DNA of 64,000 nucleotides, taken from contig CALKWQ010000023.1 of assembly GCA_938003925.1 (NCBI GenBank), positions 150,554 through 214,553 of the forward strand. Direction: 5' to 3'. The DNA comes from an uncultured bacterium (GTDB lineage: Bacteria > Patescibacteriota > Patescibacteriia > Patescibacteriales > UBA12465). How positions within the stretch are numbered: position 1 is the first letter of the stretch; every line of letters starts with the position of its first letter. A program made the translations under genes and the position numbers. Shown piece after piece: positions 3,988 to 27,600 of this stretch. Under the pieces are notes generated by a model that saw nothing but the letters and a program-made list of their open reading frames with translations, was not told where the DNA came from and did no database searches.

Positions 3988-6995
<3,008 letters not shown>

Positions 6996-7056
6996 TCCCA
7001 CGCTTTTGTTTTTCAAGCAAAAATACTTCGAAAATATATAAAAAGACGCCATTGTT

Positions 7057-7170
7057 CTGGTGGTTAAAGCGGAGGGGTCACACCTGATCCCTTCCCGAAC
7101 TCAGCAGTTAAGCCCTCCAGCGCCGATGATACTTGGGCCTGAGCCCTGGGAAAGTAGGTCGCCGCCAGAA
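7057..7170 (+). rRNA. rrf: 5S ribosomal RNA
   Basis: The terminal helix pairs tctggtggt with gccgccaga. Internally it has CCTGATCCCTTCCCGAACTCAG…GCCGATGATACTTGGG…GGGAAAGTAGGTCGCCGCC, typical of bacterial 5S. It lies 60 nt downstream of the 23S. Confidence 0.9.
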
Positions 7171-26209: not shown

Positions 26210-26248
26210 TTGGTTGATATAAATATTTTATATCTTCGTTATCACATG

Positions 26249-26323
26249 TCGGGGTACTGGGACTTGAACCCAGAATCTCCTGCTCCCAAAGCAGGCGCCC
26301 TAGCCAATTAGGCCATACCCCGT
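26249..26323 (-). tRNA. tRNA-Pro (anticodon UGG)
   Basis: The reverse complement is CGGGGTATGGCCTAATTGGCTAGGGCGCCTGCTTTGGGAGCAGGAGATTCTGGGTTCAAGTCCCAGTACCCCGA. The anticodon stem is CCTGC/GCAGG and the loop is UUUGGGA. Confidence 0.8.
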
Positions 26324-26331
26324 TATTATAT

Positions 26332-27024
26332 TTAATTTTCGAACTTTTTCTTTAGAAAGTCAATCCAACCTATTAAACGAAAAAAAAGGTTGACGTTATT
26401 AATTCTAATATGAATGGTTCCGTGTGGCAATTTGTTAATAGTTTTTTTCCGGCTAGCTTTGCTTATTACATGGCTAACTTTACAAAAATTATTGCTATCA
26501 AGCTTAGTTATCTTCTTCCAGAAGGCAATACTCTTTTTGTCCTGGCTCTCACTGTTGTTATGTAACATTAGCTGCGCGGTTATGTCTGATTTTGTAATTG
26601 GCAAGAATCGTAAAAAGAATTTCATCATTATTCTAATCATTTCTGGATCGGAATTTGCGAAGTCTATGCTTTTCCACTTACTGCCTTGCGCACCCTTTTT
26701 ATATCCTTCCCCCCAGTATAATGCTAGTCCAGTAATGAATAGCGGATCTGATAAAAATCTAATAGCTTCTTTAGAGGCTTTAGCTCTATTTTTTTCATGT
26801 TTATTCTGTATTAATTTACTTCTATCCTTATTGCGTTTTATTAATTTCTTTATTTTTATCGCCTGAATATGTTGGTGAATCTTCGCGCTTGCTTTTTTAT
26901 CAAGATTTAAGTTTTTTAACCAAGAGCTGAGAGTGCTTTTAGAAACGCCGAGTTTCAAGCCTATCTGGCTGTAGGTTAATCCGTTTCTCCTTAATTTTAT
27001 TGCTAACGCTTTATCGCTTCTCAT
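26332..27024 (-). CDS. Hypothetical HTH-domain protein. It has an N-terminal resolvase/Hin-like HTH and a C-terminal domain of unknown function that may be degenerate endonuclease-like.
   Basis: The N-terminus LTYSQIGLKLGVSKSTLSSWLKN is a classic HTH. The middle segment FITGLALYWGEGYKKG loosely resembles a LAGLIDADG-type motif. The gene is embedded between tRNA genes on the same strand. Confidence 0.4.
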   Translation of the reverse strand: MRSDKALAIKLRRNGLTYSQIGLKLGVSKSTLSSWLKNLNLDKKASAKIHQHIQAIKIKKLIKRNKDRSKLIQNKHEKNRAKASKEAIRFLSDPLFITGLALYWGEGYKKGAQGSKWKSIDFANSDPEMIRIMMKFFLRFLPITKSDITAQLMLHNNSESQDKKSIAFWKKITKLDSNNFCKVSHVISKASRKKTINKLPHGTIHIRINNVNLFFRLIGWIDFLKKKFEN

Positions 27025-27084
27025 AAAAAAATAAACCTAGTATTATCAATGTACCATAGGTTCATTTTTTTGTCTATTTATTTG

Positions 27085-27405
27085 TGCCCCGGGTCAGAAT
27101 CGAACTGACGACACAAGGATTTTCCTTTTTCTGAGCCTAAGTTTCCCTAGGGATTGGACTATATCATCTCCGTTTTATTAAAAATAATAAAGGGCGGAGT
27201 TGGGCGCTCGCGGCGGGGTTATTGTTGGGCTCACCCGCTAGTCTCTACACCTTCTTCAATTTGAAACCCAATTGAAGCTTGGCTCGGAATTACCATTACG
27301 TCTTCACGCTTTAGGCTTCTCCGAATTCACCCAATTTTCATTCCAGCGTTTCCGCTGGACGGACCGAAAATCCAGTCCTTTGCTCTACCACTGAGCTACC
27401 GAGGC
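27085..27405 (-). tRNA. tRNA-Phe (anticodon GAA) interrupted by a 249-nt group I intron. Exon 1 is 27374..27405 and exon 2 is 27085..27124.
   Basis: Exon 1 is GCCTCGGTAGCTCAGTGGTAGAGCAAAGGACT. Exon 2 is GAAAATCCTTGTGTCGTCAGTTCGATTCTGACCCGGGGCA. Joined, they give a canonical class I tRNA with anticodon loop CUGAAAA. Confidence 0.8.
27125..27373 (-). ncRNA. Group I self-splicing intron in the tRNA-Phe anticodon loop with no internal ORF
   Basis: The intron begins GGAUUUUCGGUCC. Its GGUCC pairs with exon GGACU to form P1 with a U•G wobble at the 5' splice site. Its GGAUUUUC is complementary to the first 8 nt of the 3' exon, forming P10. P2 is CCAGCG-GAAA-CGCUGG. An R-like GUAGAGACUA and an S-like GAUAUAGUCC form the P7 GACUA/UAGUC pairing. 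The intron ends in G. Confidence 0.75.
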
Positions 27406-27426
27406 ATAACTGAATATACAGATTAG

Positions 27427-27499
27427 TTGCGGGAGCTGGATTCGAACCAGCGACCTCCAGGTTATGGGCCTGGCGAGCTGCCAACTGCTCTATCCCGCG
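27427..27499 (-). tRNA. Initiator tRNA-fMet (anticodon CAU)
   Basis: The reverse complement is CGCGGGATAGAGCAGTTGGCAGCTCGCCAGGCCCATAACCTGGAGGTCGCTGGTTCGAATCCAGCTCCCGCAA. It shows a C1:A72 mismatch, an A11:U24 pair and G-C pairs at the base of the anticodon stem, which are initiator identity elements. Position 33 is C rather than U. Confidence 0.75.
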
Positions 27500-27526
27500 A
27501 TTTTGGTTAATTTAATAACGGAAGGG

Positions 27527-27600
27527 TGGGCAATGGAGGATTCGAACCTCCGACCTCAACATTATCAGTGTTGCGCTCTAACCAACTGAGCTAATTGCCC
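27527..27600 (-). tRNA. tRNA-Ile (anticodon GAU)
   Basis: The reverse complement is GGGCAATTAGCTCAGTTGGTTAGAGCGCAACACTGATAATGTTGAGGTCGGAGGTTCGAATCCTCCATTGCCCA. The anticodon loop is CUGAUAA. Confidence 0.85.

What the first reader, a model, noticed from the sequence alone, without database searches (positions are those of the whole stretch)
27085..27405. The tRNA-Phe(GAA) gene is split by an ORF-less group I intron in the anticodon loop
A canonical tRNA can only be assembled from two minus-strand pieces 249 nt apart. Exon 1 supplies the acceptor, D arm and the 5' anticodon stem plus CU. Exon 2 supplies GAAAA, the 3' anticodon stem, variable loop, T arm and acceptor. The insert has the defining group I architecture. 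P1 forms between exon GGACU and intron GGUCC with a U•G at the 5' splice site. P10 forms between the intron's first 8 nt and the first 8 nt of exon 2. P2 has a GAAA tetraloop. R/S-like elements form P7 (GACUA/UAGUC), and the intron ends in G. Group I introns in bacterial tRNA genes are known mainly for tRNA-Leu(UAA), tRNA-fMet, tRNA-Arg and tRNA-Ile. A tRNA-Phe(GAA) host with a 33/34 insertion site, in a CPR-like genome, would be unusual. The intron carries no homing endonuclease ORF.
Basis: seen in the sequence. Interest (0 to 1): 0.8.

Follow-up and report, generated by a model that had tools for sequence, protein, structure and literature searches.

The report
Group I intron splitting tRNA-Phe gene
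The only tRNA-Phe gene in this window is interrupted in its anticodon loop by a 249-base group I intron; this type of intron was reported in Patescibacteria in 2025-26, so the finding is correct but not new.

Summary
On the minus strand, exon 1 (27405-27374), a 249-nt intron (27373-27125) and exon 2 (27124-27085) assemble a canonical tRNA-Phe(GAA). The intron scores 79 bits against Rfam Intron_gpI (gathering score 50, E 2e-18). It has U(-1)•G in P1, an 8-bp P10, GAAA loops on P2 and P9, an invariant P7 and a terminal G. Twenty-eight further species-level genomes, nearly all Patescibacteria, carry the same interrupted tRNA-Phe. Across 30 sequences, 94.6% of the proposed pairs form and 40 of 78 pairs show compensatory changes, so the fold is under selection. 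A hairpin between P7 and P3' (P7.1) and similarity to published examples place it in subgroup IA1, not the classical IC3. The claim that this would be unusual is out of date. Nakagawa et al. (mSystems 2026) list Phe(GAA) 33/34 in a Doudnabacteria genome, and that intron is homologous. The window's intron is a new member of a known kind. One side lead is new. A 230-aa helix-turn-helix gene (26332-27024) directly follows the interrupted tRNA-Phe in 18 of 30 relatives and in 8 of 11 independently sampled homolog clusters. Its function is unresolved.

The parts
27374..27405 (-). tRNA-Phe exon 1 (32 nt): acceptor 5' strand, D arm, anticodon stem 5' strand, C32, U33
   Evidence: Sequence; ARAGORN with introns and on the joined exons
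27125..27373 (-). Group I intron, 249 nt, no ORF; starts after U33 and ends with the terminal G at 27125
   Evidence: RF00028 79.0 bits, E 2.1e-18; ARAGORN intron call; covariation; single-sequence fold recovers P2-P9, z -2.8
27085..27124 (-). tRNA-Phe exon 2 (40 nt): G34 A35 A36, anticodon stem 3' strand, variable loop, T arm, acceptor 3' strand, discriminator A73
   Evidence: the identical anticodon arm occurs in at least 120 uninterrupted tRNA-Phe genes
27361..27378 (-). P1: exon GGACU (27378-27374) pairs with intron guide GGUCC (27365-27361), with U33•G at the 5' splice site; the loop between them is the P10 strand
   Evidence: 4-5 contiguous pairs including U•G in 30 of 30 homologs
27366..27373 (-). 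P10 5' strand GGAUUUUC; pairs with exon 2 GAAAAUCC (27124-27117)
   Evidence: 8 of 8 pairs in the window; 4-8 contiguous pairs in 30 of 30; U-A to C-G compensatory change where the tRNA has G37 (columns 16/300)
27343..27358 (-). P2 hairpin CCAGCG-GAAA-CGCUGG
   Evidence: all 6 pairs show changes on both sides; the loop is GAAA, GUAA or GCAA (GNRA) in all 30 homologs
27328..27334 (-). P3 5' strand UUGGGUG; pairs with CGCCCAA at 27206-27200
   Evidence: 100% of cells paired, 2 pairs compensatory. This rules out the look-alike GCCCAAC in the P7.1 loop as the partner
27284..27324 (-). P4-P5-P5a domain, with CCUAAAG/UAAUGG internal loop resembling a tetraloop receptor
   Evidence: Receptor resemblance is inferred from the sequence only
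27250..27282 (-). P6 and P6a hairpin
   Evidence: all 8 P6a pairs show changes on both sides
27239..27245 (-). P7 5' strand G(A)GACUA with bulged A; pairs with UAGUCC at 27161-27156 (pseudoknot with P3; guanosine-binding helix)
   Evidence: invariant in 30 of 30, but the 5' strand was part of the search pattern
27213..27238 (-). P7.1 hairpin GCGGG-(16-nt loop UGAGCCCAACAAUAAC)-CCCGC between P7 and P3'; mark of the IA-type architecture
   Evidence: 100% paired, 3 of 5 pairs compensatory; P7-to-P7' spacing of 75 nt matches IA1-labelled introns (74-75) against 27-39 in the four IC3, IB and IA3 examples where the spacing could be measured
27168..27199 (-). P8 and P8a hairpin
27136..27151 (-). P9 hairpin CCUAGG-GAAA-CUUAGG
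   Evidence: 100% paired, 5 of 6 pairs compensatory; absent in the four Doudnabacteria-type homologs
26332..27024 (-). 230-aa ORF filling the spacer between tRNA-Phe and tRNA-Pro: N-terminal helix-turn-helix, long helix, uncharacterised alpha/beta domain. Linked to the interrupted tRNA-Phe in relatives; function unknown
   Evidence: Pfam HTH_23 3.6e-8; linkage; models; fold searches inconclusive
27031..27076 (-). Promoter-like site TAGACA-17-TACATT (27076-27048) overlapping an imperfect hairpin (about 27063-27032) and a T run just before the ORF start codon
   Evidence: the same arrangement is conserved in relatives. Function is inferred
27426..27600 (-). Upstream members of the tRNA cluster: tRNA-Ile(GAU) 27525-27600 and tRNA-Met(CAU) 27426-27499
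26248..26322 (-). Downstream tRNA-Pro(UGG), 9 nt after the ORF stop codon

Best explanation
This is a working tRNA-Phe(GAA) gene of a Patescibacteria (CPR) bacterium, and its precursor must lose a 249-nt IA1-type group I intron before it can be used. The gene lies in a minus-strand Ile-Met-Phe-(ORF)-Pro tRNA cluster. In the precursor, the intron's guide sequence GGUCC pairs with the 5' half of the anticodon stem plus C32 and U33 to form P1, placing U33•G at the 5' splice site. An external guanosine bound in P7 attacks after U33. The adjacent guide segment GGAUUUUC then holds the start of exon 2 (GAAAAUCC) in P10. The terminal G (27125) replaces the external guanosine in P7, and the freed U33 3'-OH attacks after it, joining U33 to G34. 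P3-P8 and P4-P6 form the core. The GAAA loops of P2 and P9 and the P7.1 hairpin probably stabilise it. Shown here: the sequence elements, the model match, conservation of the fold by compensatory change, and the canonical spliced product. Inferred: that catalysis occurs, and that it needs no protein.
For: RF00028 scores 79 bits over the whole model. ARAGORN assembles tRNA-Phe(gaa) with a 249-nt intron and folds the joined exons as a canonical cloverleaf. A core-sequence scan of one genome per species found 30 loci. Twenty-eight are tRNA-Phe(GAA) interrupted at the same site (207-266 nt), a 29th (L010) carries the same intron at 76.9 bits but is cut at the locus end, and one is tRNA-Asn; 20 of the 28 have tRNA-Met(CAU) immediately upstream, 9 of them also tRNA-Ile(GAU), while 2 Doudnabacteria-type loci have tRNA-Val and 6 show no upstream tRNA in the stretch examined. 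On 30 aligned sequences, 94.6% of cells pair, 40 of 78 pairs have changes on both sides, and 0 of 500 shuffles reach any of the five measures. Sliding the partners drops pairing to 30-51%. U(-1) and the terminal G are present in 30 of 30. P1 has 4-5 pairs and P10 has 4-8 pairs in all, and P10 changes along with tRNA position 37. The single-sequence fold recovers P2-P9. No other tRNA-Phe lies in the 64-kb window. In the complete genome GCA_016699995.1 all three tRNA finders count exactly one tRNA-Phe, the interrupted one. [quoted passage not shown] The identical locus occurs in independent assemblies (L031, L032).
Against: No expression or splicing data exist for this intron or for any Phe intron. 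Nakagawa et al. tested only Asn and Asp introns. P7 and the P7.1 loop look invariant partly because the search pattern contained them. The rest of this genome could not be scanned for a second tRNA-Phe. The conserved neighbouring protein leaves open that efficient splicing in the cell needs a cofactor.
Confidence: 0.9

Rival explanations
1. The intron is real but depends on a protein. The 230-aa helix-turn-helix protein encoded just downstream, or another host factor, acts as a splicing helper (maturase-like), so the RNA alone does not splice efficiently.
Against: At least 9 of the 28 intron-bearing loci lack the ORF beside the gene; five of them (L006, L022, L007, L018, L029) show no ORF remnant, L001 and L005 keep fragments of its start and L005 and L013 its upstream hairpin. 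The fold match was not reproduced with the domain-only model. No sequence profile links the protein to any known family. All core RNA elements are intact, and related IA introns self-splice.
Confidence: 0.12
2. The intron and the downstream ORF form a two-part mobile unit. The ORF would be a free-standing homing endonuclease that cuts intron-less tRNA-Phe alleles at or near the insertion site, and repair copies both the intron and the ORF (collaborative, or trans, homing). Splicing itself remains RNA-catalysed, so this adds to the best explanation and does not replace it.
For: The linkage is as above. No ORF was seen beside an uninterrupted tRNA-Phe. The ORF is present or absent at one fixed site. 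L001 and L005 retain remnants of the ORF start, and L005 and L013 retain its upstream hairpin, as expected for endonuclease gene decay. The ORF has its own promoter-like site. It has a DNA-binding helix-turn-helix and an invariant acidic motif LYW(A/G)EG plus NSDP. Precedents are F-CphI with the psbA intron and mobE with I-TevIII (PMC3984707; PMC2790892).
Against: No nuclease domain was recognised by Pfam, NCBIfam, PHROGs or PDB sequence searches. The structural hint is weak and was not reproduced. Three of 11 sampled clusters have no tRNA-Phe upstream (L033, L044, L175). The test against intron-less alleles sampled only non-Patescibacteria tRNA-Phe genes, so it was not a fair test.
Confidence: 0.25
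3. The locus is a decaying pseudogene. The intron no longer splices, and the cell obtains tRNA-Phe from another gene or from its host.
For: Only the absence of direct expression data, and the fact that the rest of the genome was not scanned.
Against: The exons are nearly invariant across 30 genomes and fold canonically. Helices are kept by compensatory changes, which needs selection on the RNA fold. U(-1), the terminal G, P7 and the guide sequences are intact in all. In a complete relative it is the only tRNA-Phe gene.
Confidence: 0.03
4. The interruption is an assembly artefact, or the true splice site is 34/35 rather than 33/34.
For: ARAGORN places the boundary one base to the right in 17 of the 28 homologous tRNA-Phe calls because a G is duplicated at both junctions.
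Against: The same locus was recovered from independent samples and in 28 species. Both boundary placements give the identical mature tRNA. Only 33/34 has U before the 5' splice site paired to G in P1 and a G as the last intron base.
Confidence: 0.02

Closest known systems
tRNA-Phe(GAA) 33/34 group I intron of Patescibacteria genome GCA_016699995.1 (Doudnabacteria), Nakagawa et al., mSystems 2026, PMC13011429, Table 1 and Table S3
   Same: Same host tRNA and same insertion site. Same U(-1) and terminal G. Homologous core, with shared strings AAAUCGGGUGAA, GUAGAGACUAG-hairpin-AGCGCCCGAC and GAUGAUAUAGUCC. No ORF inside the intron. A homolog of the downstream ORF is present in Doudnabacteria-type loci (L014, L023, L025).
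   Different: About 65% identical to the window intron. 211 nt against 249 nt. It lacks the P9 GAAA hairpin. The tRNA has a different anticodon stem and G37, with matching changes in P1 and P10. The tRNA cluster differs: Val-Phe-ORF-Gly.
[quoted passage not shown] 2026), shown there to self-splice in vitro
   Same: Same architecture, including the P7.1 hairpin. The window scores best against the IA1-labelled examples (188-212 against 110-162 for the others) and has the same 75-nt P7-to-P7' spacing. Locus L004, a tRNA-Asn 35/36 intron, even shares the 27-base core string.
   Different: Different tRNA and an insertion site two bases away, so the guide sequences differ. Some Asn introns carry an HNH endonuclease gene inside; this one carries none.
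Classical bacterial tRNA group I introns of subgroup IC3: cyanobacterial tRNA-Leu(UAA) 34/35, tRNA-fMet 33/34, Agrobacterium tRNA-Arg, Azoarcus tRNA-Ile
   Same: Small ORF-less ribozymes in the anticodon loop. P1 and P10 are built from the anticodon stem-loop. There are GNRA loops on P2 and P9. The tRNA-fMet introns share the 33/34 site.
   Different: IC3 introns lack P7.1; measured examples have a P7-to-P7' spacing of about 39 nt against 75 nt here. Nakagawa et al. report that no Patescibacteria tRNA intron is IC.
Collaborative (trans) homing pairs: cyanophage S-PM2 F-CphI with the ORF-less psbA intron, and phage T4 mobE with the nrdB intron (PMC3984707; PMC2790892; PMC6083498)
   Same: [quoted passage not shown] The gene is present or absent at a fixed neighbouring site.
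   Different: Those proteins are proven nucleases of known families. Here no nuclease domain or activity is established. The host is a bacterial chromosome, not a phage.

Membership tests
Group I intron (Rfam RF00028) | Covariance-model score at or above the curated gathering score | tested here: met
   79.0 bits against 50, E 2.1e-18, model positions 1-253 of 253
Group I intron (Rfam RF00028) | P1 formed by the 5' exon and an internal guide sequence, with U•G at the 5' splice site | tested here: met
   GGACU/GGUCC with U33•G; 4-5 pairs with U•G in 30 of 30 homologs
Group I intron (Rfam RF00028) | Terminal G as the last intron base, and P10 with the 3' exon | tested here: met
   G at 27125 and in 30 of 30. 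P10 has 8 pairs in the window and 4-8 in all, with a compensatory change tracking tRNA position 37
Group I intron (Rfam RF00028) | Conserved core: P3-P8 and P4-P6 domains and the P7 guanosine-binding helix forming a pseudoknot with P3 | tested here: met
   All helices present. 94.6% paired, 40 pairs compensatory, 0 of 500 shuffles reach this. P7 is invariant, so it is uninformative for covariation
Group I intron (Rfam RF00028) | Guanosine-initiated self-splicing | not testable with these tools
   Needs an in vitro transcript with GTP and Mg2+. Demonstrated only for related Asn and Asp introns (PMC13011429)
Subgroup IA (IA1-like) | Extra helix P7.1 between the P7 5' strand and the P3 3' strand | tested here: met
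   Hairpin at 27238-27213, 100% paired, 3 of 5 pairs compensatory. Spacing of 75 nt as in IA1-labelled introns. That this position defines IA rests on established knowledge (Michel and Westhof classification)
Subgroup IA (IA1-like) | Best score with the IA1 subgroup covariance model (Group1IntronDatabase models, as used by Nakagawa et al.) | not tested
   Those models are not available here. As a substitute, pairwise scores against labelled examples were 212, 211 and 188 for IA1, against 124 for IA3, 142-162 for IC3 and 110-122 for IB
Subgroup IC3 (classical tRNA introns) | Compact link between P7 and P3' with no P7.1 | tested here: not met
   A 26-nt hairpin is inserted. The spacing is 75 nt, against 39 nt in the one IC3 example where it could be measured and 27-39 nt across the four measurable non-IA1 examples
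tRNA-Phe | Canonical cloverleaf with anticodon GAA after removal of the intron | tested here: met
   ARAGORN reports tRNA-Phe(gaa), 72 nt, on the joined exons. The anticodon arm is identical to at least 120 uninterrupted tRNA-Phe genes. The discriminator is A73
tRNA-Phe | Aminoacylation with phenylalanine; only tRNA-Phe of the genome | not testable with these tools
   No other tRNA-Phe in the window. The rest of the genome is not available. A complete relative has a single tRNA-Phe gene, the interrupted one
LAGLIDADG homing endonuclease (considered for the ORF at 26332-27024) | Match to a LAGLIDADG sequence family | tested here: not met
   No Pfam, NCBIfam or PHROGs LAGLIDADG hit, and no PDB sequence hit with profiles A2 or A4.
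LAGLIDADG homing endonuclease (considered for the ORF at 26332-27024) | alpha-beta-beta-alpha-beta-beta-alpha fold with the acidic residue at the end of the first helix | tested here: inconclusive
LAGLIDADG homing endonuclease (considered for the ORF at 26332-27024) | Site-specific DNA cleavage | not testable with these tools
   Needs purified protein and target DNA

The most novel reading that the evidence does not exclude
The ORF-less tRNA-Phe intron and the helix-turn-helix gene immediately downstream are a conserved two-gene module of Patescibacteria. The protein belongs to a large family with no Pfam model (3,263 representative clusters). It would be a new kind of free-standing homing endonuclease or intron-specific cofactor that mobilises or services the intron from outside it. 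If so, the published conclusion that tRNA introns lacking internal endonuclease genes have limited mobility would be incomplete.
Probability: 0.25. Interest if true: 0.6.

Novelty: new member of a known kind. Interest (0 to 1): 0.32.

Why it matters
The practical point is annotation. Default tRNA finders miss this gene, so the genome would be scored as lacking tRNA-Phe. That distorts completeness estimates and claims of tRNA loss in reduced CPR genomes. The biological point is that a reduced genome appears to depend on a ribozyme to make a tRNA it needs (no other tRNA-Phe was found in this 64-kb window, and a complete relative has only the interrupted gene); this was already made by Nakagawa et al. 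(2026). This analysis adds three things. The Phe intron is not a single case: it occurs in at least 28 species-level genomes across several Patescibacteria lineages. Its fold is under selection. It is persistently accompanied by an uncharacterised helix-turn-helix gene, which gives a testable lead on how an ORF-less intron might persist or move.

Tried and rejected

2. I scanned metagenomes with the spliced-junction sequence to find intron-less alleles and test whether the ORF avoids them. This confirms the junction but is not a fair linkage test.

3. I considered GCCCAAC in the P7.1 loop as the P3 3' strand. I rejected it because the covarying partner of UUGGGUG is the downstream CGCCCAA (columns 51-52 with 215-216).

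4. I tried to name the source genome through the exact protein cluster. The cluster carries no names or accessions. None of the 30 species representatives is the same genome; the best intron identity is 87%.

5. Williams (2020) may already list a Phe class among its 21, but its table is an image and could not be read.

6. The Patescibacteria rows of Table S5, which would give the published subgroup of the Phe intron, are cut off in the stored file.

Full report
**Observation.** The minus strand of 27405-27085 reads as exon 1, intron, exon 2. Exon 1 is GCCUCGGUAGCUCAGUGGUAGAGCAAAGGACU (27405-27374). The insert is 249 nt (27373-27125). Exon 2 is GAAAAUCCUUGUGUCGUCAGUUCGAUUCUGACCCGGGGCA (27124-27085). 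Default ARAGORN finds seven tRNAs in the window and no tRNA-Phe. With intron detection it returns tRNA-Phe(gaa) with a 249-nt intron. The joined exons give a 72-nt canonical cloverleaf with one U•G in the acceptor stem and discriminator A. A gathering-threshold scan of the window against all Rfam families gives a single Intron_gpI hit at 27383-27135 (minus strand), 79.0 bits against a gathering score of 50, E 2.1e-18, over the full model. The intron region holds only three short ORFs (36, 40 and 48 aa, all TTG-start; two lie on the opposite strand and the third merely runs in from upstream).

**Anatomy.** I wrote the structure on the window sequence.
- P1 is GGACU/GGUCC with U33•G at the 5' splice site.
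- P10 is GGAUUUUC/GAAAAUCC, 8 of 8 pairs.
- P2 is a 6-bp stem with a GAAA loop.
- P3 is UUGGGUG/CGCCCAA.
- P4, P5 and P5a include an internal loop CCUAAAG/UAAUGG that resembles a tetraloop receptor (inferred from sequence only).
- P6 and P6a follow.
- P7 is G(A)GACUA/UAGUCC with a bulged A.
- An extra hairpin, GCGGG-16 nt-CCCGC, lies between P7 and the 3' strand of P3. I call it P7.1.
- P8 and P8a follow.
- P9 has a GAAA loop.
- The intron ends CUCAGAAAAAG, with the terminal G at 27125.

Thermodynamic folding of the intron alone independently recovers P2, P3, P4, P5, P5a, P6a, P7.1, P8 and P9, with a z-score of -2.8. A G is duplicated at both junctions, so placing the intron at 34/35 gives the same mature tRNA. 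Only 33/34 puts U before the 5' splice site and G at the intron's end.

[quoted passage not shown] Its Table 1 lists Phe(GAA) 33/34 in GCA_016699995.1 (Doudnabacteria), and the supplement gives the sequence. That intron is clearly homologous to the window's, at about 65% identity.

A 27-base string shared by the two (P7 plus the P7.1 loop) was scanned against one genome for each of 185,579 species. It matched 30 loci, nearly all labelled Patescibacteria. Twenty-eight of them are tRNA-Phe(GAA) interrupted at the same site by 207-266 nt, 20 of them directly downstream of tRNA-Met(CAU) (9 also with tRNA-Ile(GAU)). One (L010) is cut at the locus end but still scores 76.9 bits against Intron_gpI. 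One (L004) is a tRNA-Asn(GUU) 35/36 intron that ARAGORN miscalls as Thr(UGU), exactly the error the paper describes. The window itself recurs in two independent assemblies.

**Covariation.** Thirty sequences were aligned: the window, 28 loci and the published intron. On this alignment the structure has 94.6% of cells paired. Forty of 78 pairs have changes on both sides. The covariation score is 0.264 against 0.114 in column shuffles, and 0 of 500 shuffles reach any of the five measures. Sliding the 3' partners by 1-3 columns drops pairing to 30-51%.

P2, P6a, P7.1, P8 and P9 are rich in compensatory changes. P3 has two compensatory pairs, which identify the downstream CGCCCAA as its partner and not the look-alike in the P7.1 loop. 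P7 never varies. That says nothing either way, and it partly reflects the search pattern.

A register-free check shows P1 with 4-5 contiguous pairs including U•G, and P10 with 4-8 pairs, in all 30. Where the tRNA has G37 (the four Doudnabacteria-type sequences), the P10 strand carries C in place of U. The exons are almost invariant. These patterns are what selection on a working ribozyme and a working tRNA would produce.

**Subgroup.** The held part of the paper's Table S5 gives subgroup labels. The window intron aligns best to IA1-labelled introns: Nitrospirota tRNA-Asn scores 212 and 211, and Bacteroidota tRNA-Ile2 scores 188. IA3, IC3 and IB examples score 110-162. The window also shares the IA1 spacing of 74-75 nt between the P7 strands, against 27-39 nt in the four others where the spacing could be measured. 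This agrees with the paper's statement that no Patescibacteria tRNA intron is IC and nearly all are IA. The subgroup models themselves could not be run here.

**Mechanism and essentiality.** The mechanism is the standard two-step group I pathway set out under the best explanation. The elements are shown; catalysis is inferred. Nakagawa et al. demonstrated self-splicing for Asn and Asp introns of the same phylum and architecture, but not for Phe. No other tRNA-Phe lies in the window. In the complete Doudnabacteria genome every tool counts one tRNA-Phe, the interrupted one, so splicing is probably essential there and, by analogy, here.

**Novelty.** Williams (2020) raised the count to 21 classes. 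Nakagawa et al. found introns at nearly every anticodon-loop position, including Phe 33/34 in Patescibacteria and Phe 31/32 in Elusimicrobiota. This locus is a new member of a published kind. What this analysis adds is breadth (at least 28 species, against one genome in the paper's set of 95 complete genomes) and covariation support.

**Side lead: the downstream ORF.** In several relatives tRNA-Pro follows tRNA-Phe within 32-146 nt. In the window the spacer is 761 nt and is filled by a 230-aa ORF (26332-27024) that ends 9 nt before tRNA-Pro.

- Linkage from the intron side: a homolog lies at the same place and on the same strand in 18 of 30 intron loci, including the divergent Doudnabacteria type at 28-37% identity.
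- Linkage from the protein side: 290 homologs were found. Eleven clusters other than the window's own were looked up. Eight have an intron-containing tRNA-Phe ending about 60 nt upstream, or cut by the contig end. They fall in three different cluster contexts: Ile-Met-Phe-ORF-Pro, Leu-Val-Phe-ORF-Gly (or Met-Gly), and Val-Phe-ORF-Gly. The other three have no tRNA-Phe upstream but still have another tRNA within about 25 nt of their 3' end.
- Signs of loss: some ORF-less loci keep remnants of the ORF start or of its upstream hairpin, which indicates loss by deletion.
- Expression: a promoter-like site precedes the ORF.

The protein has an N-terminal helix-turn-helix and a confident predicted structure, with pLDDT 89. 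Its C-terminal domain belongs to a family of 3,263 representative clusters, and no Pfam model matches that domain in any of the members scanned. The invariant residues are the E-G of LYW(A/G)EG and an NSDP motif.

My LAGLIDADG idea received only one weak structural hint, which was not reproduced, and no sequence support. The function is therefore unknown. Collaborative homing, as for F-CphI with psbA or mobE with nrdB, or a splicing cofactor role, are hypotheses and not findings.

**Verdict.** The finding is real and correctly interpreted. It is ordinary in kind given the 2025-26 literature. The intron-ORF linkage is a modest new lead.

Noticed in passing
window 26332-27024 (-): A 230-aa ORF (helix-turn-helix plus an uncharacterised alpha/beta domain) fills the tRNA-Phe to tRNA-Pro spacer. 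Homologs follow the interrupted tRNA-Phe in 18 of 30 relatives and in 8 of 11 independently sampled clusters. Its C-terminal domain belongs to a family of 3,263 representative clusters, and no Pfam model matched that domain in any member scanned.
   Followed up: yes
window 27076-27031 (-): A promoter-like TAGACA-17-TACATT site with an upstream TG overlaps an imperfect hairpin and a T run directly before the ORF start codon. The same -35, hairpin with TATAAT in its loop, and T-run arrangement is conserved in relatives, and persists in some loci that have lost the ORF (L005, L013).
   Followed up: partly
L001 and L005 (downstream of tRNA-Phe): Loci that lack the ORF retain fragments of its start (ATGCGTTCTGATAAAA... 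or a mutated version), suggesting the ORF was deleted and not that it was never present.
   Followed up: partly
L004 2325-2659: A 332-nt intron shares the exact P7/P7.1 core string but sits in a tRNA that ARAGORN calls Thr(UGU) 33/34. Shifting the boundary by 2 nt gives tRNA-Asn(GUU) 35/36, the miscall described by Nakagawa et al. The Phe and Asn introns are close relatives.
   Followed up: partly
L037 1111-1444: A clearly homologous tRNA-Phe intron (259 nt; GACUAACAAGUGAGUCCCAAC core) was not reported by Rfam Intron_gpI at E up to 0.01, although ARAGORN finds the split tRNA. The Rfam model can therefore miss members of this lineage.
   Followed up: no
alignment A1 columns 69/108 (window 27316 with 27292): The pair closing P5 is G•U in 9 sequences, A-U in 3 and non-standard in 18. 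The non-standard cases read as A opposite C in the rows I checked by eye (for example L001 and the consensus), a G•U to A•C exchange typical of a conserved wobble geometry, next to the receptor-like CCUAAAG/UAAUGG loop.
   Followed up: no
window 3992-7170 (+): 23S rRNA (3992-7000) and 5S rRNA (7056-7170) are present, but no 16S rRNA gene was found anywhere in the window, including the 4 kb upstream. The 23S has two insertions relative to the bacterial model near 4270-4320 and 4351-4378, and no group I intron.
   Followed up: no
L044 254-1144 and L045: One ORF homolog is annotated as a 296-aa fusion with a TruB N-terminal fragment on short low-coverage contigs, followed by tRNA-Pro. This could be a rearrangement, an insertion into truB or a chimeric assembly.
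   Followed up: no
L175 1201-1884: A distant family member (E 2.5e-26 to the domain profile) has no tRNA-Phe upstream, but its stop codon abuts tRNA-Arg(UCG). Every member examined in which a downstream tRNA could be seen lies within about 25 nt of the 5' end of a tRNA gene (0-2 nt in L175 and L033, 9 nt in the window, about 24 nt in L044 and L045).
   Followed up: no
proteins P0180, P0200, P0233, P0240: Some family members of 396-504 aa match the domain profile in two separate stretches, so they may carry two copies of the uncharacterised C-terminal domain (the positions of the second stretches were not checked).
   Followed up: no
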